The translations under genes were made by a program, and so were the position numbers. A model generated the notes under the pieces. It was not told where the DNA came from. It was given only the letters and a program-made list of their open reading frames with translations, and searched no databases. A stretch of DNA of 6,457 nt from a virus. Taxonomy: Duplodnaviria; Heunggongvirae; Uroviricota; Caudoviricetes. Positions 1,754 to 6,417 of the stretch are shown here, piece after piece; position 1 is the stretch's first letter; every line of letters starts with the position of its first letter. The stretch is from IMG/VR virus record IMGVR_UViG_3300029310_000158; one strand, 5' to 3'.

Positions 1754-4225
1754 TTAAGAATCAGCCTGACTCGGGATCAGTTTTTGCCAGATAACTGAAA
1801 CGTATTTTGCCTGGTAACGGGCGTCATCAAGTGCATTATGGCGCTCACCTTCGAATGGAATAGCCGTTCTGGCATCGAAGTCTATGGCTTTCCCCAGCTC
1901 AACGATTGTGCGTACATCGCGATCGTTGTAGTAACGCCACGGGCAGGGGATCCCCTGCCGTTCGTATGAACGGCGCAAAATCGTGTTGTCGAAGTTGGCT
2001 CCATTTCCCCAAACCTGAACAAAAAATTCACCGGAGTTTTCGTCGATAAATTCTCGCAATTGTAACAGTGCATCATCTAACGGGATTTCATCGGTCATAA
2101 TGGCAGATTGCGCTTCGCGTGATTGCTTAAGCCACCATTTAATGGTGTCCCGATCAATGACTCCGCCAGCAGTTTCCAGATCGATAGTCTTACTAAATTC
2201 CGGTCCCATATCTCCGGTTTGCGGATCGAAAAATATTGCACCTATTGAGATGATCGGGGCATCAGGATTTTTTCCCATGGTTTCAAGGTCGATCATTAGA
2301 TGGTCACACGTCCTGCTGGTGGATGTGATTTCGTGATGACCGTTCACCTTAATTGGGTGATCTGCCGTCTCGCCAGTTTCATTATCGCTATTGTGATGCT
2401 GATTGCCGCCAGTGTTCTCCTTGTGTGGATGTTCAGCGCCTTCCATTTCCTCCGGATCATCTTCCTGAACTTCAACCTGATACTCTTCATCGAATGTTTC
2501 TTGGTATGTTGCGTCGCCCATCACCGCGCCACAATCAGGGCAGTTGCCGCCGCCGGTCTGACCGCAGGCGGTGCAGACTTTTTCCACTTCCTGTTGCGCT
2601 ACTGGTTCAGGCTGTTTCGTTTCTGGCTCGTTTTGTAACGCATTTGGACTGTTTTGTTCCGCTTTTTGGTAGTTCCGTTCCGATTCATGCTGGTTCTGGT
2701 TCACAGAATCGCGGGTCTGGAGCCCCTTAACCCATTTCGGATCATTCGGGTCACTAATCCCTTCAACAAATTCACCACGTGATGCAGCAAGCAACTTATC
2801 GGCGTCAGGCTGGCTGATATTGGCTGCCTGCATAATTTTGTTTACTTCGTCAGCGGTAACTTTTATCGGCTCTGGTTGTTCTGAATCTTCAGCGGTATCT
2901 ACATTTTGCGGTAAGCCCGTGTATGTGCCATTTTTTCGGGCAAAATATTCTTCTTTTGTGATTTCAGTGGCGCCAGCAGCCAGTGCCTTATCCAGACCAG
3001 AGAGTTTGTTTGCGCGACCGTATTTTTCTCCGTCCTTATCTGCGAAGAGGAAATAGAACGGCCCCTCACGCTCTACAGATGGTTCAGCTTCCGGCGCGGT
3101 TTCATTTTTTGGGATATCAGATACCTCAGTTTCCACTGCATCAGTTTGTGTTTCTGATGACTGGAGAACATCAACAGTGCCCAGGTCTGTTTCTTCATTC
3201 TCAAACACGCCCTTTGTCGTCAGGTATTCGCAGATATATTTGTTCAGTGCTACGGGATCTTTGTGAATGTCGATCGGACGCTCACGGACAAGGCCAAAAA
3301 TAGTTTGGCGGTCGTAGCGAAGGGCATCAGGCTGTTTGCGCATTGATGCCGAGATACGCTTCCAGTCTTCGCGGTCGTTGTCGATAACTTCTTTTTTTGC
3401 CCAGCGATGGATGCTGCCGTCAATGTTTCCGGCATCCACATCACTAGGCCAGAGAGCGTAGGCCAGTTCGTCATCCAGTGTTTTCCATGTCTGCTTGTAT
3501 TCGCGATGAATGGCAGCAATGACCGGGCTGATTTTTCCTGTTGAATTTTCAGTGTACTGTTGATTGGCTCTGGCGCGGGCGAGATCAACAACAGACGTGT
3601 ATTTTCCGGTTTCCTTGCGTTCACCTTCGCGACGTTTTTTCCAGATGCGCATCTCTGCCTGAATTTCGGGCCATTTAGCACCAGGAATACATTTATGCTT
3701 AACCCACCCAATGGCGTGCAACTTAAGCTCCGGATACATGGCGTTAACTTCTGGCATTTTCATCAACGCTTCAACGATATGTCCGTCGAATGTTGCCATG
3801 TCTTCCTGCAACAATTCCTGTGCGCTAATAACCATATCAACGGTGATGTTTTCACATGTGTCGAACTTAACCATGACAGCGTTCTGTACTTCAGGGGCCA
3901 GCTTGTCAAAAGTGACGTTCATCGGATCGGATTCAGTCTCAACCGGGACAAAAGAAGCAGACTCCTCATCCCAGCGGTTTTCCTGCATATATTCAGCATC
4001 CCATGAATCGAGGGCAGGGCGGGGTATGCCAGGTTTATCCTCGCAGACAATAAATTTATAAGCGCAGTCCTGAGCAGCCGGATAATGTTCCAGGAATTGC
4101 CAGTGAAATTTTGCTCGAGCACGGCGTTCGTCGCCAGCTTCAATGGCTGTGGCTACAGCCACAGCGCCTTCTTCCCTTGTTGCCAGTTCGTCAGGAATAG
4201 CGGCGCAAATAAAGACTTTACTCAT
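1754..4225 (-). CDS. Large multidomain prophage protein (probable full-length YdfE-like protein): N-terminal domain of unknown function, acidic low-complexity linker with a CxxC-x7-CxxC zinc-ribbon motif, His-rich segment, C-terminal DEDDh (DnaQ-like) 3'-5' exonuclease domain
   Basis: Single ORF 1754..4261 (835 aa from a TTG). The most likely start is ATG at 4223-4225, preceded by GAGGT with an 8-nt spacer (823 aa); ATG at 4238-4240 is another option. Exo I motif MIDLETMG is at about 2282-2290, Exo II WGNGANFDNTIL follows, and Exo III ERHNALDDARYQ is at about 1837-1860. The zinc-ribbon motif CTACGQTGGGNCPDC maps to 2531-2575. By synteny it sits where ydfE lies in K-12 Qin, immediately downstream of ydfD. 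Confidence 0.8.
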   Translation of the reverse strand: MSKVFICAAIPDELATREEGAVAVATAIEAGDERRARAKFHWQFLEHYPAAQDCAYKFIVCEDKPGIPRPALDSWDAEYMQENRWDEESASFVPVETESDPMNVTFDKLAPEVQNAVMVKFDTCENITVDMVISAQELLQEDMATFDGHIVEALMKMPEVNAMYPELKLHAIGWVKHKCIPGAKWPEIQAEMRIWKKRREGERKETGKYTSVVDLARARANQQYTENSTGKISPVIAAIHREYKQTWKTLDDELAYALWPSDVDAGNIDGSIHRWAKKEVIDNDREDWKRISASMRKQPDALRYDRQTIFGLVRERPIDIHKDPVALNKYICEYLTTKGVFENEETDLGTVDVLQSSETQTDAVETEVSDIPKNETAPEAEPSVEREGPFYFLFADKDGEKYGRANKLSGLDKALAAGATEITKEEYFARKNGTYTGLPQNVDTAEDSEQPEPIKVTADEVNKIMQAANISQPDADKLLAASRGEFVEGISDPNDPKWVKGLQTRDSVNQNQHESERNYQKAEQNSPNALQNEPETKQPEPVAQQEVEKVCTACGQTGGGNCPDCGAVMGDATYQETFDEEYQVEVQEDDPEEMEGAEHPHKENTGGNQHHNSDNETGETADHPIKVNGHHEITSTSRTCDHLMIDLETMGKNPDAPIISIGAIFFDPQTGDMGPEFSKTIDLETAGGVIDRDTIKWWLKQSREAQSAIMTDEIPLDDALLQLREFIDENSGEFFVQVWGNGANFDNTILRRSYERQGIPCPWRYYNDRDVRTIVELGKAIDFDARTAIPFEGERHNALDDARYQAKYVSVIWQKLIPSQADS

Positions 4226-4317
4226 TTGTTTTAACCTCATGACAGATTTAAGGATGAACAAATCCCTGCCATTGCTGGCATATAAGAATGAAACCGGATA
4301 TTTATTACGGAACTGTT

Positions 4318-4509
4318 TTAAAGACCTGCCGGGATTTCGATATTATCCTGGTGAATAACTTTATCGACCGGGTAACAGTTACCGGGAATTTTCTGTTCGG
4401 TTGCTGCAGTCATACACTCCTGCATTGTCCTGTGAACACTGACTGCAATATCAACTGGCTCTCCGGAAACAAGAAAAACTGTCAGAACAAGCACAAATGC
4501 TGAATTCAT
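4318..4509 (-). CDS. ydfD: Small membrane/lysis protein YdfD (63 aa)
   Basis: 63-aa ORF MNSAFVLVLTVFLVSGEPVD... with a hydrophobic N-terminal segment. Its ATG (4507-4509) overlaps the dicB stop by 4 nt (ATGA), and aaAGGA lies 8 nt upstream. Matches my recall of K-12 YdfD in sequence and length. The ORF track's longer 81-aa form starts further upstream without support. Confidence 0.85.
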   Translation of the reverse strand: MNSAFVLVLTVFLVSGEPVDIAVSVHRTMQECMTAATEQKIPGNCYPVDKVIHQDNIEIPAGL

Positions 4510-4694
4510 TGTGCACATCCTTTTGGCATCAGACGTAAACGAGCCAGCATTGAAACAATGCATATTTTATTTAATAGCTCCCGTTCTTGTTTTCTCTTGT
4601 TAATGGCATCTTCAGTAAATACAGGGTTACTGATAGTGACACCAATTTCAAAACAACCTTCAGACGTATTAACGTTTGGTAATAACGTTTTCAT
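4506..4694 (-). CDS. dicB: Cell-division inhibitor DicB (62 aa)
   Basis: ATG at 4692-4694 preceded by GAGGG with a 7-nt spacer. The 62-aa product MKTLLPNVNTSEGCFEIGVTISNPVFTEDAINKRKQERELLNKICIVSMLARLRLMPKGCAQ matches my recall of E. coli DicB. The 97-aa ORF in the track is an in-frame upstream extension with no RBS. Confidence 0.9.
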   Translation of the reverse strand: MKTLLPNVNTSEGCFEIGVTISNPVFTEDAINKRKQERELLNKICIVSMLARLRLMPKGCAQ

Positions 4695-4863: not shown

Positions 4864-4906
4864 AAAAAGGGCGGCAGAGCAGTCACGGAGTAAAACTGAT
4901 ACCGCC
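4864..4906 (-). terminator. Rho-independent terminator forming the DicF 3' end (GGCGG...CCGCC stem, then U5)
   Basis: On the minus-strand transcript, GGCGG pairs with CCGCC (with an internal CAG/CUG helix) and is followed by UUUUU (plus-strand aaaaa at 4864-4868). Confidence 0.7.
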
Positions 4907-4921
4907 AAACGTCACCAGAAA
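4869..4921 (-). ncRNA. dicF: DicF small regulatory RNA (53 nt; antisense regulator of ftsZ and other mRNAs)
   Basis: The reverse complement of 4869-4921 reads TTTCTGGTGACGTTTGGCGGTATCAGTTTTACTCCGTGACTGCTCTGCCGCCC, followed by TTTTT. This matches my recall of DicF, and it lies between ydfC and dicB as in Qin. Confidence 0.85.
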
Positions 4922-5262: not shown

Positions 5263-5481
5263 CTAACGCGGGTATGTAATCATTCTGGCAATGCTTAATG
5301 CCGCTGCTTTTTCCAGATTGGTGATATCCTGCTCCAGAGCGGACAGATTTTCAGCCTGCTTAGCCCTGGCTTCATTAGCCCATTTCAGATCCTGCGCTGC
5401 ATTAATTTTCTGGCGCATCCACTCATAAAGTTCATCATCGGTATAGTCTGGCGCGATGATGACGGGTTCTCGTTTCTGCAT
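5263..5481 (-). CDS. ydfC: Small prophage protein YdfC (72 aa, predicted helical/coiled-coil)
   Basis: 72-aa ORF MQKREPVIIAPDYTDDELYEWMRQK... with ATG at 5479-5481 and AGGA 6 nt upstream. Position and length match K-12 ydfC. Confidence 0.85.
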   Translation of the reverse strand: MQKREPVIIAPDYTDDELYEWMRQKINAAQDLKWANEARAKQAENLSALEQDITNLEKAAALSIARMITYPR

Positions 5482-5510: not shown

Positions 5511-5639
5511 TCAGCCGTTAGATTTTGCCGAACTGGAAAGCGCCTGTTTAAACTCACTGAAGCTGAGAGCTTCTTCGCCTTCGGCAAGGCCTTCGAAGTA
5601 TTCTTCGTAAGCCTTTTCCATGATTGTGTCGAAATCCAT
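5511..5639 (-). CDS. ydfB: Small acidic prophage protein YdfB (42 aa)
   Basis: Absent from the supplied ORF track because it is short; translated by hand. ATG at 5637-5639 is preceded by AGGTGAG with a 4-nt spacer. Product: MDFDTIMEKAYEEYFEGLAEGEEALSFSEFKQALSSSAKSNG, stop TGA at 5511-5513. It starts 1 nt after the ydfA stop. Length matches K-12 YdfB. Confidence 0.75.
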   Translation of the reverse strand: MDFDTIMEKAYEEYFEGLAEGEEALSFSEFKQALSSSAKSNG

Positions 5640-5640
5640 A

Positions 5641-5796
5641 TCACTCACCTGAGTTTCTTTCCAGCCAGCGACGGGCACCATTTTCGGTTTTAAACGTTTT
5701 GCTTTTGGTATACGTCATTGCGGTGAACGTGCCGTCCTGGTTTGGAAACACGCCGTACACCAGAGATTCGTTGTTGCCAAGATCGATAGTATCCAT
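5641..5796 (-). CDS. ydfA: Small prophage protein YdfA (51 aa)
   Basis: ATG at 5794-5796 preceded by GAGG with a 5-nt spacer. Product: MDTIDLGNNESLVYGVFPNQDGTFTAMTYTKSKTFKTENGARRWLERNSGE. It is the first gene of the dicB operon. The track's 77-aa form uses an upstream TTG with no RBS. Confidence 0.85.
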   Translation of the reverse strand: MDTIDLGNNESLVYGVFPNQDGTFTAMTYTKSKTFKTENGARRWLERNSGE

Positions 5797-5962
5797 GCTG
5801 ACCTCATTTCCCCTTAACGCTGGGGTAGCGGAACTGTTTGCTGAGAACACCGTGCGGTGTGTTGATGCAAACAAGATTAGCCATGACTAACATATCGGTC
5901 AAGTGATTTTGTATGCTATAGCTAACATAATTGATGTGGTAAAAGATAACTCATTGATGATG
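5797..5962 (-). promoter_or_regulatory. dicB-operon promoter/operator region (PdicB) between the dicA stop and ydfA
   Basis: Candidate sigma70 elements on the minus strand: -35 TTGACC (plus 5897-5902), 17-nt spacer, -10 TAATCT (plus 5874-5879). An operator-like 6-4-6 imperfect palindrome ATTAGCcatgACTAAC (5876-5891) overlaps the -10 and matches 13 of 16 positions of the palindrome in the dicA-dicC region. A second palindromic cluster GCTATAGC/TAGCTAAC lies at 5915-5926. Confidence 0.5.
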
Positions 5963-6334
5963 TTATCTTTTATTTGTCCGCTGACGGGCTTTTAGTAATT
6001 CTTCAAAGAGTTTATTGAAGTTTTTTACTCGAGCTCGCATTTCGGCGAGCTGGGTATCCTGTTCTGATTCTGGCAGTGCATTAAACAGCTCAAGGAGCTC
6101 TAGTTCTTTGGGGGATAAGGCAACTGGCTTCTCAACAGGTGGTGTTGGTTGCTTGTCTTCATCGCCANNNNNNNNNNAAAGGTTCTTCCCTGTAGGTTCA
6201 CTATCACCCCGTTCCCATTGTGATACAGACACATGGGAGATTTTCAGGGCTTTAGCAAGAGACCTTTGGGTGTGTTTGAGGTTTTTCCGACGATACCTGA
6301 TGCGTTCGCCGATAGTTAAATTTTTTGTTTCCAT
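5963..6334 (-). CDS. dicA: Prophage repressor DicA (HTH XRE family, P22 C2-like), reading frame interrupted by an N run
   Basis: ORF METKNLTIGERIRYRRKNLKHTQRSLAKALKISHVSVSQWERGD... has an HTH motif and the C-terminus ...KNFNKLFEELLKARQRTNKR. It matches my recall of DicA (135 aa); here it is 123 codons, 4 of them X from the 10 N at 6168-6177. No obvious SD precedes the ATG at 6332-6334. Confidence 0.88.
   Translation of the reverse strand: METKNLTIGERIRYRRKNLKHTQRSLAKALKISHVSVSQWERGDSEPTGKNLXXXXGDEDKQPTPPVEKPVALSPKELELLELFNALPESEQDTQLAEMRARVKNFNKLFEELLKARQRTNKR
6168..6177. other. Run of 10 ambiguous bases (N) - assembly gap or masked segment inside dicA
   Basis: Ten literal n characters in the sequence. 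The flanking frame is preserved, but the ORF is about 12 codons shorter than the DicA length I recall, so real sequence (roughly 46 nt) is probably missing. Confidence 0.95.
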
Positions 6335-6417
6335 AGTTAGCTAATGCTAAATCGTATTGACTATGTTTTTGTTAACATCTATCTTGTTAGTTATGACTAA
6401 CAATAAAGGTGTTTTAA
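6335..6417. promoter_or_regulatory. Divergent dicA/dicC promoter-operator region
   Basis: Plus-strand candidate dicC promoter: TTGACT (6357-6362), 17-nt spacer, TATCTT (6380-6385). It is immediately followed by the palindrome GTTAGTtatgACTAAC (6386-6401). A second palindrome, TTAGCtaatGCTAA (6337-6350), sits 3 bp upstream of the dicA start codon. Confidence 0.6.

What the first reader, a model, noticed from the sequence alone, without database searches (positions are those of the whole stretch)
5511..5796. Tightly coupled tiny genes ydfA and ydfB; YdfB is strongly acidic (possible mimic or inhibitor)
The ydfA stop and ydfB start are 1 nt apart. YdfB (42 aa) has 10 Asp/Glu against 3 Lys, a composition reminiscent of small phage inhibitor or DNA-mimic proteins. 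As far as I know, YdfA, YdfB and YdfC have no established function although they lead the dicB operon. They are plausible unexplored host-takeover or anti-defence factors.
Basis: partly seen in the sequence, partly recalled or inferred. Interest (0 to 1): 0.4.

Follow-up and report, generated by a model that had tools for sequence, protein, structure and literature searches.

The report
Conserved acidic early microprotein YdfB
ydfA and ydfB are real, selected small genes at the head of the repressed dicB operon of a Qin-like prophage, and the acidic 29-residue core of YdfB also turns up in the first-expressed genes of virulent SP6-like phages and in the first-transferred region of conjugative plasmids, which fits (but does not prove) a role in helping invading DNA establish itself.

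Summary
On the minus strand, ydfA (5796..5641, 51 aa) ends in TGA, one T follows, and ydfB (5639..5511, 42 aa) starts. YdfB has 10 Asp/Glu, 3 Lys, 0 Arg and pI 4.05. The DNA is identical to E. coli K-12. The searchable literature up to 2024 gives no function for either gene.

Both genes are under purifying selection: dN/dS is 0.09 for the YdfB core and 0.16 for ydfA, against about 0.8 or more in four of the five control frames (0.17 in the antisense frame that shares third codon positions).

The ydfA-ydfB coupling is a local arrangement, not a conserved partnership. YdfB-like genes occur without ydfA in 67 of 137 contexts, and roughly half of ydfA-like copies in E. coli lack ydfB.

The conserved unit is a 25-29-residue acidic helix-loop-helix, YExYFxSLxEGEExLSFxEF. 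It sits behind at least 53 different prophage repressors. It is also the first or second early ORF of SP6/K1E-like and Astrithr-like virulent phages, and a domain in proteins about 1.6 kb inside the leading region of IncX4 and IncU plasmids.

Best reading (about 0.45): a non-toxic, early-made protein-binding inhibitor that serves establishment or anti-defence. The target is unknown and DNA mimicry is untested. The resemblance to an EF-hand is sub-threshold.

The parts
5641..5796 (-). ydfA: 51-aa DUF1391 protein and first gene of the dicB operon. The AF2 model shows three beta-strands followed by a C-terminal helix.
   Evidence: PF07151 match, E=1.7e-28. phrog_751. dN/dS 0.16. AF2 pLDDT 76.5, with strands at 15-18, 24-27 and 32-35 and a helix at 38-49. 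No significant PDB fold match.
5511..5639 (-). ydfB: 42-aa acidic helix-loop-helix microprotein
   Evidence: D+E = 10, K = 3, pI 4.05. phrog_2061, E=1.3e-27. No Pfam, NCBIfam or PADLOC family. AF2 pLDDT 85 with helices at 3-16 and 27-39.
5535..5621 (-). Conserved 29-codon core of YdfB (residues 7-35, MEKAYEEYFEGLAEGEEALSFSEFKQALS). This is the unit shared with stand-alone 27-33-aa proteins of other prophages and virulent phages, and with domains of plasmid proteins.
   Evidence: Alignments A1 and A2: Y14, F15 and G21 are invariant; Y11, L18, E23, S26 and E29 are conserved in at least 90% of members. dN/dS 0.088. Profile scores of 47-57 bits for SP6, K1E, Astrithr, IncU and IncX4 proteins.
5637..5649 (-). 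ydfA-ydfB junction: GGTGAG (Shine-Dalgarno of ydfB, inside the last ydfA codons), then TGA, T, ATG
   Evidence: Conserved in all 89 ydfA-ydfB loci that matched the junction pattern.
5801..5805 (-). Shine-Dalgarno sequence GAGGT of ydfA
   Evidence: Sequence.
5874..5902 (-). Promoter-like site upstream of ydfA (TTGACC, 17 nt, TAATCT), overlapped by a TTAG-N6-CTAA palindrome at 5877-5890. Two more such palindromes lie between dicA and dicC (6337, 6387). This is the likely position of the DicA-repressed dicBp.
   Evidence: Sequence. The consensus scan did not call it, because the -10 hexamer matches only 3 of 6. Published dicBp initiates upstream of ydfA and is repressed 22-fold by DicA.
5963..6334 (-). 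dicA: HTH_3 repressor gene. It contains a masked run of N at 6169-6178.
   Evidence: PF01381 match, E=1.3e-10. Sequence.
5263..5481 (-). ydfC: 72-aa third gene of the operon, starting 29 nt after ydfB
   Evidence: phrog_1744, E=1.6e-39. Follows ydfB in nearly all E. coli-type loci.
4869..4920 (-). DicF sRNA
   Evidence: Rfam RF00039, 76.7 bits.
4506..4694 (-). dicB: cell-division inhibitor
   Evidence: PF05358 match, E=1.9e-40.
4318..4509 (-). ydfD (DUF1482). Homologues accompany YdfB-like genes in Citrobacter, Enterobacter, Klebsiella and Pectobacterium prophages.
   Evidence: PF07358 match. tblastn across loci.

Best explanation
ydfA and ydfB are two independent, translated small genes at the 5' end of the DicA-repressed early-left (dicB) operon of a Qin-like lambdoid prophage.

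YdfB belongs to a family defined by a 25-29-residue acidic helix-loop-helix, Y-E-x-Y-F-x-S/G-L-x-E-G-E-E-x-L-S-F-x-E-F. Different mobile elements place this unit where it is made first after their DNA becomes active in a cell:
- behind the repressor gene in many lambdoid prophages;
- as the first or second early ORF of virulent SP6/K1E-like and Astrithr-like phages;
- about 1.6 kb from the nick site in the leading region of IncX4 and IncU conjugative plasmids.

The most likely mechanism is inferred, not shown. The peptide, probably as a dimer or by folding onto its partner, would use its invariant aromatic face (Y11, Y14, F15, F27, F30) and its ring of glutamates to bind and block a conserved enterobacterial protein that threatens incoming or newly induced DNA. 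That makes it an establishment or anti-defence factor.

It is not toxic by itself. Its close spacing to ydfA reflects ordinary translational coupling in a compact operon rather than a two-protein system. YdfA (DUF1391, predicted as three beta-strands plus a helix) is a separate lambdoid-prophage protein of unknown role.
For: Shown here:
- Both ORFs are under purifying selection in their annotated frames only.
- The acidic and aromatic residues are the conserved ones, and net charge is -5 to -10 across the family.
- The AF2 model is a confident helix-loop-helix, pLDDT 85.
- A profile built only from prophage sequences finds SP6 gene 0.6, the K1E and Astrithr ORFs and the IncU protein at E = 1e-3 to 1e-6 against a 1.84-billion-protein library. 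A broader profile gives the IncX4 and IncF proteins 47-48 bits.
- Foldseek against viral models returns SP6 0.6, mutPK1A2, a Providencia phage and Shigella phage Buco with probability 0.97-1.0.
- In SP6 the gene lies at 998-1099, before the ocr-like position and the RNA polymerase gene. In K1E and Astrithr it is an unannotated ORF directly ahead of the first annotated gene.
- In prophages it lies 135-500 nt after at least 53 different repressor genes, of both the HTH_3-only and the S24-peptidase types.
- 581 plasmid records carry the motif, 521 of them conjugative.
- In IncX4 and IncU plasmids, a TATCCTG|C nick motif abutting a long inverted repeat sits about 95 nt upstream of taxA or ddp1 on the opposite strand. 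This puts the YdfB-like gene in the first ~1.8 kb to enter, with the transferred strand as its template.
- Anti-defence genes are known to concentrate in exactly that location and orientation (PMC11541004).
- Expression of ydfABC without dicF and dicB is harmless.
Against: - No target, binding partner or phenotype is known, and no known anti-defence or defence family matched.
- No solved structure resembles it.
- Early position is also compatible with other establishment functions such as replication, recombination or gene regulation.
- The family is confined to Enterobacterales elements: only 82 representatives among 1.84 billion proteins.
- Many E. coli copies are truncated. About 18% of genomes with any ydfB match lack an 80%-length copy, and NCBI lists many partial entries. 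Cryptic prophages therefore do not always keep it.
- The oriT assignment in the plasmids rests on a consensus motif plus an inverted repeat, not on an experiment.
- Translation of ydfB in vivo was not checked with ribosome-profiling data.
Confidence: 0.45

Rival explanations
1. YdfB acts on the phage's own developmental switch. It could be an anti-repressor, a helper of the DicA-type repressor, or a CIII-like protease inhibitor made first from the early-left promoter.
For: - It is always next to the immunity region in prophages.
- Ragunathan et al. raised the possibility that a product of the dicBF operon helps maintain DicA repression.
- Lambda CIII is a small helical inhibitor encoded in the pL operon (my knowledge).
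Against: - The same motif follows at least 53 unrelated repressors of two architectures.
- It is present in strictly virulent SP6-like and Astrithr-like phages and in plasmid leading regions, none of which has such a switch.
- Rem, not an operon product, is the identified DicA anti-repressor.
Confidence: 0.1
2. The ORF is mainly a translated leader. Its translation, rather than its product, keeps the 5' end of the early transcript ribosome-covered and feeds ribosomes to the next gene by coupling.
For: - It is usually the first ORF of the transcript.
- It overlaps the next start (ATGA) in many prophages, SP6 and K1E.
- The downstream genes are unrelated to one another.
Against: - The amino-acid sequence, not just the ORF, is conserved across genera and element types (dN/dS 0.09, invariant aromatic residues).
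- In the window it is the second gene and is followed by a 29-nt gap.
- In plasmids the motif is fused as an N- or C-terminal domain of 72-103-aa proteins.
Confidence: 0.07
3. YdfB is a single degenerate EF-hand that pairs as a homodimer, and it may bind a divalent cation. This is a structural reading and is compatible with the main explanation.
For: - hhalign against eight canonical EF-hands aligns EGEEALSFSEF to loop positions 3-12 plus the exit helix (P = 7e-4, probability 26%).
- 16 of 19 sub-threshold PDB profile hits are EF-hand proteins (alpha-actinin CaM-like domain, CHP1, calcineurin B, MICU2), best E = 0.054.
- The second AF2 helix starts at residue 27, which corresponds to loop position 10.
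Against: - No Pfam EF-hand model matches at E <= 10.
- Calmodulin scores only 8-10 bits against the family profiles.
- Loop position 1 is a near-invariant Leu instead of Asp, and position 6 is Glu instead of Gly.
- Foldseek against the PDB gave no EF-hand.
Confidence: 0.12
4. YdfB is a DNA mimic in the strict sense. Its carboxylates would imitate a phosphate backbone to trap a DNA-binding enzyme such as a type I restriction enzyme or RecBCD.
For: - Strong, conserved negative charge.
- Same genomic timing as Ocr in T7-like phages and ArdA in plasmid leading regions (my knowledge).
Against: - The core is only 25-29 residues.
- The invariant positions are as much aromatic or aliphatic as acidic, which looks more like a protein-protein interface.
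- K1E already carries an annotated ocr-like gene in the same early region.
- Nothing structural could be tested here.
Confidence: 0.12
5. YdfA and YdfB form an obligate two-protein system, which would be the reason for the 1-nt spacing.
For: - The junction is conserved in all 89 ydfA-ydfB loci that matched the junction pattern.
- In one locus (L170) the two are adjacent in the opposite order.
Against: - 63 short-form and 4 long-form YdfB contexts lack YdfA.
- No YdfA homologue was found in the Citrobacter, Enterobacter, Klebsiella, Pectobacterium or Pantoea loci.
- E. coli genomes hold 8731 ydfA-like places but only 4135 ydfB-like places.
- Rac pairs YdaF with the unrelated YdaG.
- A published survey notes that strain ATCC 8739 has ydfA without ydfB.
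Confidence: 0.05

Closest known systems
Ocr (T7 gene 0.3) and ArdA (plasmid leading regions): acidic anti-restriction DNA mimics
   Same: Strongly acidic. Encoded where the element's DNA is expressed first, either the first early gene of a podovirus or the T-strand-templated leading region of a conjugative plasmid. Not toxic to the host.
   Different: Ocr and ArdA are 116-166 aa with defined DNA-like folds. YdfB's core is 25-29 aa, has no sequence or fold match to them, and its conserved positions are largely aromatic. K1E carries an ocr-like gene in addition. No function has been shown for YdfB.
T7 gp5.9 (about 52-aa acidic helical RecBCD inhibitor) and T4 Stp (26-aa anti-restriction peptide). 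Both recalled from memory, not tested here.
   Same: They show that very small phage peptides can act as stoichiometric inhibitors of host nucleases. gp5.9 is also acidic and helical.
   Different: No similarity was tested or detected. The timing, the phages and the targets differ, and YdfB's target is unknown.
Lambda CIII, Kil and DicB: small effector proteins of lambdoid early-left operons
   Same: Same operon type and size class. DicB lies in the very same operon.
   Different: Those proteins have known host targets (FtsH, FtsZ, MinC) and are toxic or filament-inducing. ydfABC expression is harmless. Unlike them, YdfB is also found in virulent phages and plasmids.
EF-hand helix-loop-helix motif
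   Same: Helix, then a loop of about 10 residues, then a helix. The sequence G-x-x-x-L-S-F-x-E-F-V matches the second half of EF-hand loops and the exit helix. Sub-threshold hits are dominated by EF-hand proteins.
   Different: It fails the family models. It lacks Asp at loop position 1 and Gly at position 6. It is a single motif rather than a pair.
PHROG families phrog_2061 (YdfB) and phrog_751 / Pfam DUF1391 (YdfA)
   Same: The window proteins are full-length members.
   Different: These families carry no functional annotation.

Membership tests
DUF1391 (PF07151), for YdfA | Match to the Pfam model above its gathering score | tested here: met
   98.5 bits against a cut-off of 27.3, E=1.7e-28, full length.
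YdfB family (phrog_2061) | Full-length match to the family profile, with the motif YExYF..L.EGEE.LSF.EF | tested here: met
   phrog_2061 E=1.3e-27. 100% identical to K-12 YdfB. Motif residues are conserved in A1 and A2.
EF-hand | Significant match to an EF-hand family model | tested here: not met
   No Pfam EF-hand hit at E <= 10 for any of 17 members. Calmodulin scores 8-10 bits against the YdfB profiles. hhalign probability is only 26%.
EF-hand | Canonical 12-residue loop with Asp at position 1, Gly at 6, a hydrophobic residue at 8 and Glu at 12 | tested here: not met
   In the hhalign register, position 1 is L18, position 6 is E23, position 8 is L25 and position 12 is E29. Two of the four features are met.
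EF-hand | Helix-loop-helix geometry, paired with a second motif | tested here: inconclusive
   AF2 gives helices at 3-16 and 27-39 around a 10-residue loop. Pairing or dimerisation could not be modelled. Foldseek against the PDB returned no EF-hand.
DNA-mimic proteins (Ocr, ArdA, Gam, gp5.9 type) | High density of surface carboxylates and a low pI | tested here: met
   24% D/E, pI 4.05, net charge -7. The family range is -5 to -10.
DNA-mimic proteins (Ocr, ArdA, Gam, gp5.9 type) | Carboxylate spacing that imitates a DNA backbone, and competitive binding to a DNA-binding protein | not testable with these tools
   No complex prediction or binding assay was available. There is no sequence or fold similarity to known mimics.
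Plasmid leading-region early genes (setting of the plasmid homologues) | Location within the first kilobases after the oriT nick, with the transferred strand as template | tested here: met
   TATCCTG|C on the minus strand abuts an inverted repeat about 95 nt upstream of taxA or ddp1. The YdfB-like gene lies 1.5-1.8 kb on the leading side and on the plus strand, in both IncX4 and IncU plasmids. The nick site is inferred from the MOBP consensus, not mapped.
Known anti-phage defence components (PADLOC) | Match to a defence-system protein model | tested here: not met
   No hit for YdfB, YdfC or YdfD. YdfA has only a chance-level AbiEi hit, E=0.009 at 13.7 bits.
Toxic host-takeover effectors of the dicB operon (DicB, DicF type) | Growth inhibition or filamentation on expression | not tested
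   Not tested here; the published evidence argues against it. Published data show that a Plac-driven operon with ydfABC but without dicF and dicB gives normal growth, viability and morphology.

The most novel reading that the evidence does not exclude
The YdfB motif is a previously unrecognised, very small (25-29-residue) establishment or anti-defence module. It would be shared by temperate phages, virulent podoviruses and conjugative plasmids of Enterobacterales, always made first, and it would neutralise one conserved host barrier. It may be the smallest stand-alone inhibitor of its kind, and it is built on a degenerate single EF-hand-like fold.
Probability: 0.3. Interest if true: 0.8.

Novelty: new variant of a known kind. 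Interest (0 to 1): 0.5.

Why it matters
ydfA and ydfB are among the still-uncharacterised 'y' genes of E. coli K-12. ydfA-like DNA is present in 78% of 5,426 complete E. coli genomes and ydfB-like DNA in 60%.

Showing that the YdfB core is also the first early ORF of SP6/K1-type phages, which are used in phage therapy against K1 E. coli and Salmonella, turns an anonymous prophage ORF into a testable candidate. The same applies to its presence in the leading region of IncX4, IncU and IncI2 plasmids, the main carriers of mcr-1 and other resistance genes. The candidate would be a shared factor that lets foreign DNA establish in enterobacteria.

If it blocks a defence system or nuclease, it would point to that host barrier. 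It would also give a 29-residue tool or target for manipulating phage infection and plasmid spread.

Tried and rejected
- **Family and structure searches for YdfB.** Pfam, NCBIfam and PADLOC scans found nothing. PDB sequence search and Foldseek against the PDB gave nothing significant. For YdfA, PDB and Foldseek returned only chance-level hits. The 'head-DNA stabilization protein D' label in some phage records reflects an E=0.38 similarity to gpD.
- **EF-hand membership.** This was pursued with hhalign, a PDB profile search and a calmodulin control, and was left as an unproven resemblance.
- **Specific anti-repressor of DicA.** Rejected because of repressor diversity and the presence of the motif in virulent phages.
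- **Obligate YdfA-YdfB pair.** Rejected on distribution.
- **Rac YdaG as a YdfB homologue.** It is not.
- **A conserved downstream partner across element types.** None was found.
- **Viral-contig scan.** The first scan returned only identical E. coli copies. It had to be repeated with a divergent first sequence.
- **Literature.**
  - ydfA, ydfB, ydaF, ydaG, DUF1391 and the dicBF operon give no function.
  - 'ydfB' in IncI1 and IncK plasmid papers is an unrelated positional gene name.
  - The plasmid proteins' accessions are absent from the supplements of the leading-region study.
  - The papers I read on IncX plasmids do not map oriT.
- **An early guess corrected.** I first placed DicF right after ydfC. 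Rfam corrected it to 4920..4869.
Full report
**What the window is.** The minus strand carries the left arm of a Qin-like lambdoid prophage, in this order:
- dicA (6334..5963, HTH_3);
- a promoter-like site overlapped by a TTAG-N6-CTAA palindrome (5902..5874);
- ydfA (5796..5641);
- ydfB (5639..5511);
- ydfC (5481..5263);
- DicF (4920..4869);
- dicB (4694..4506);
- ydfD (4509..4318);
- an intact 835-aa exonuclease gene, then xis and int.

The best phage match is Escherichia phage PhiR42_1 from strain ECOR13. The ydfA-ydfB stretch is 100% identical to K-12.

**The observation.** It is correct in every detail.
- ydfA ends in TGA (5643..5641), one T follows (5640), and the ydfB ATG is at 5639..5637.
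- The ydfB Shine-Dalgarno sequence GGTGAG is made of the last two sense codons of ydfA.
- YdfB has 42 aa, with 10 Asp/Glu, 3 Lys, no Arg and pI 4.05.
- The junction is present in all 89 ydfA-ydfB loci that matched the junction pattern.

**Are these real genes?** Yes.
- Across 50 distinct nucleotide versions of the 29-codon YdfB core, the median NG86 dN/dS is 0.088 at a median dS of about 1.4.
- The other five frames give 1.0-1.8. The exception is 0.17 for the antisense frame that shares third positions, which is an expected artefact.
- For ydfA the value is 0.16, against 0.79-0.93 in shifted frames.
- Published Northern blots detect a ydfA-containing transcript from dicBp, and DicA represses that promoter 22-fold.
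- I could not check ribosome-profiling data.

**What is known.** In the library I could search, ydfA, ydfB and ydfC are described only as small proteins of unknown function. Their Rac relatives ydaF and ydaG are likewise uncharacterised.
- One informative experiment exists. When the chromosomal operon is driven from Plac with dicF and dicB deleted, so that ydfABC and ydfD remain, growth, viability and morphology are normal. YdfA and YdfB are therefore not toxic effectors like DicB.
- ydfB appeared in an ASKA over-expression screen for H2O2 and HOCl tolerance. I give that little weight.

**The pair is not a pair.**
- In complete E. coli genomes, ydfA-like DNA occurs at 8731 places in 4210 genomes. 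ydfB-like DNA occurs at 4135 places in 3233 genomes.
- One genome per species across GTDB gave YdfB homologues in Citrobacter, Enterobacter, Klebsiella, Pectobacterium and Pantoea. None had a detectable YdfA next to it.
- The 137 distinct genomic contexts break down as follows:

| YdfB form | YdfA position | Contexts |
|---|---|---|
| 42-aa form | directly upstream | 69 |
| shorter form | absent | 63 |
| 42-aa form | absent | 4 |
| other (49 aa) | downstream (L170) | 1 |

- In Rac, the YdfA homologue YdaF follows YdaG, a 44-aa protein unrelated to YdfB.
- A published survey had already noted a strain with ydfA but no ydfB.
- The 1-nt spacing is therefore ordinary operon compaction and translational coupling.

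**The conserved unit.**
- Homologues in other genera are stand-alone proteins of 27-35 aa that begin at the equivalent of Met7 of YdfB.
- The family consensus is MxxAYEEYFxSLxEGEEALSFxEFxxALS.
- Y14, F15 and G21 are invariant. Y11, L18, E23, S26 and E29 are conserved in at least 90% of members.
- Net charge is -5 to -10 in all members examined.
- AlphaFold2 gives a confident helix(3-16)-loop-helix(27-39) model, pLDDT 85.
- The family is small: 82 representatives at E <= 1e-3 among 1.84 billion clustered proteins.

**Where the unit sits: prophages.**
- It lies 135-500 nt downstream of, and co-oriented with, the repressor gene.
- I counted 53 different upstream proteins, nearly all repressors. 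A sample of ten scanned against Pfam gave five short HTH_3 proteins of the DicA or Gifsy type, two LexA-like S24-peptidase repressors, two without a match, and one ParE toxin inserted between repressor and ydfA.
- The short forms are typically the first ORF of the early-left transcript. Their stop overlaps the start of the next gene (ATGA), and those next genes are unrelated to one another.

**Where the unit sits: virulent phages.**
- Foldseek against predicted viral structures returned SP6 '0.6', mutPK1A2, a Providencia phage and Shigella phage Buco at probability 0.97-1.0.
- tblastn found 53 phage records, mostly SP6-like Zindervirus and K1E-like Vectrevirus. The 11.6-kb Astrithrvirus group also appears.
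- In SP6 the gene (998-1099, MYDELYEAYFNSLDEGEEVLSFADFVEARGGAE) is the second annotated ORF from the left end. It lies ahead of the gene-3 position and the RNA polymerase gene.
- In K1E, gene 3 is annotated as ocr-like. In K1E and Astrithr the YdfB-like ORF is unannotated and lies immediately ahead of the first annotated gene.
- A profile made only from prophage sequences scores these ORFs at E = 2e-6 to 7e-5, even with the 1.84-billion database size.

**Where the unit sits: conjugative plasmids.**
- 581 plasmid records match, 521 of them predicted conjugative.
- In 33-kb IncX4 plasmids (the mcr-1 type), and in IncI2 and IncF plasmids, the motif is the C-terminus of a 72-103-aa protein (...YEKYFDSLKDGDECLSFKDFIECL).
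- In IncU/IncX5 plasmids it is the N-terminus of an 82-aa protein.
- These proteins score 47-57 bits with the broad family profile. Calmodulin scores 10 bits.
- In both the IncX4 and the IncU locus, the MOBP nick consensus TATCCTG|C occurs on the strand opposite to the genes, about 95 nt upstream of taxA or ddp1. It abuts a long inverted repeat, which is the canonical oriT layout.
- That makes the strand complementary to the genes the transferred strand. It places the YdfB-like gene within the first ~1.8 kb to enter the recipient, oriented so that the incoming single strand is its template.
- Samuel et al. (PMC11541004) showed that anti-defence, SSB, methyltransferase and toxin-antitoxin genes concentrate in exactly this location and orientation.
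- The plasmid neighbours here are HicAB or RelBE, an HTH protein and a DnaJ-domain protein.
- The nick site is inferred, not mapped. Papers on IncX plasmids that I read do not locate it.

**Interpretation.**
- A peptide conserved at the amino-acid level, and placed by three unrelated kinds of mobile element where it is made first, is most simply an establishment factor acting on the host.
- Its conserved aromatic face and glutamates suggest a protein-protein inhibitor.
It argues against a role in the prophage's own switch, because the motif follows many repressor types and occurs in virulent phages and plasmids.
- It also argues against a pure leader-peptide role, because the sequence is conserved and the motif is fused as a domain in plasmid proteins.
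- The target is unknown. I put the establishment or anti-defence inhibitor reading at about 0.45 and strict DNA mimicry at about 0.12.

**A structural lead.**
- The second half of the motif (EGEEALSFSEFVxA) resembles the end of an EF-hand loop plus its exit helix.
- hhalign against eight canonical EF-hands picks that register (P = 7e-4, probability 26%).
- 16 of 19 sub-threshold PDB hits are EF-hand proteins, best E = 0.054.
- However, Pfam EF-hand models do not match. Loop position 1 is Leu and position 6 is Glu. Foldseek against the PDB shows nothing.
- I therefore do not file YdfB as an EF-hand. The resemblance does suggest that the motif may pair, as single EF-hands do.

**YdfA.**
- It is a full-length DUF1391 member.
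- AlphaFold2 predicts three short strands and a C-terminal helix, pLDDT 76.5. Foldseek found no significant PDB match.
- In the searches run here it turned up only in Escherichia, Shigella and Salmonella sequences and enterobacterial prophage contigs.
- I have no mechanistic proposal for it beyond 'independent early prophage protein'.

**Verdict.** The interest is moderate.

Noticed in passing
window 6169-6178: A run of ten N lies inside dicA. It is masked or unresolved sequence, so the DicA translation has four X residues.
   Followed up: no
window 1754-4261 (-): An intact 835-aa exonuclease gene with a C-terminal Rv2179c-like 3'-5' exoribonuclease / RNase T domain. A K-12-like E. coli genome (L002) keeps only the first 268 codons before the int remnant, so this window is a less decayed Qin-like element.
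   Followed up: partly
window 5877-5890, 6337-6350, 6387-6400: Three TTAG-N6-CTAA palindromes. One overlaps the promoter-like site upstream of ydfA and two lie between dicA and dicC. They look like the operators of the DicA/DicC switch.
   Followed up: partly
L175:2648-2827 (E. coli S40, Rac prophage): YdaG (MVHYEVVQYLMDCCGITYNQAVQALRSNDWDLWQAEVAIRSNKM) occupies the first position after racR, ahead of the YdfA homologue YdaF. By eye it looks like a UBA / EF-Ts-N-type three-helix domain, and it is unrelated to YdfB.
   Followed up: no
L170:3980-4300: In this viral contig the order is reversed. A 49-aa YdfB-like gene comes first and overlaps the start of a 55-aa YdfA-like gene.
   Followed up: partly
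L178:965-1060 (phage K1E); L177:152-235 (phage astrithr, reverse complement): The YdfB-like ORFs of K1E (31 aa) and Astrithrvirus (27 aa, GTG start after GGAGG) are not annotated in the reference records.
   Followed up: yes
L166 and L174, 4004-4561: A 185-aa ORF begins with the YdfB core and continues into unrelated, Cys-rich sequence. It matches the 205-position phrog_35040. It could be a frameshift fusion or a real longer variant.
   Followed up: no
L023, L032, L034 (upstream of ydfA): In some prophages a ParE-type toxin gene (PF05016) is inserted between the repressor gene and ydfA.
   Followed up: partly
L003 (JAIIUG010000151.1): A 2.5-kb contig binned as a 'Collinsella sp.' MAG carries dicA-ydfA-ydfB-ydfC at 97-100% protein identity to E. 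coli. It is almost certainly mis-binned E. coli prophage DNA.
   Followed up: no
PV340562.1, ON470583.1 and other phage records: YdfA is annotated as 'head-DNA stabilization protein D' in several phage records. The only basis I could find is a chance-level similarity to gpD (E=0.38).
   Followed up: partly
P0269 (1412 aa) and P0290 (219 aa): Two long repetitive proteins hit the YdfB profile through repeated '...EGDRGRSFAEF...' or '...ICLSFSEFVQTIASL' segments. These are probably motif-level coincidences in repeat proteins.
   Followed up: no
L179:1201-4916 and L181:2438-6346 (IncX4 and IncU plasmids): A conserved, co-oriented block lies upstream of the inferred oriT. It runs DnaJ-domain protein, a 180-aa protein, an 83-aa protein, a small HTH protein, the YdfB-motif protein, a 116-aa or 70-aa protein, then HicAB or RelBE. 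Most of these have no family assignment, and the block may be an uncharacterised leading-region island.
   Followed up: partly
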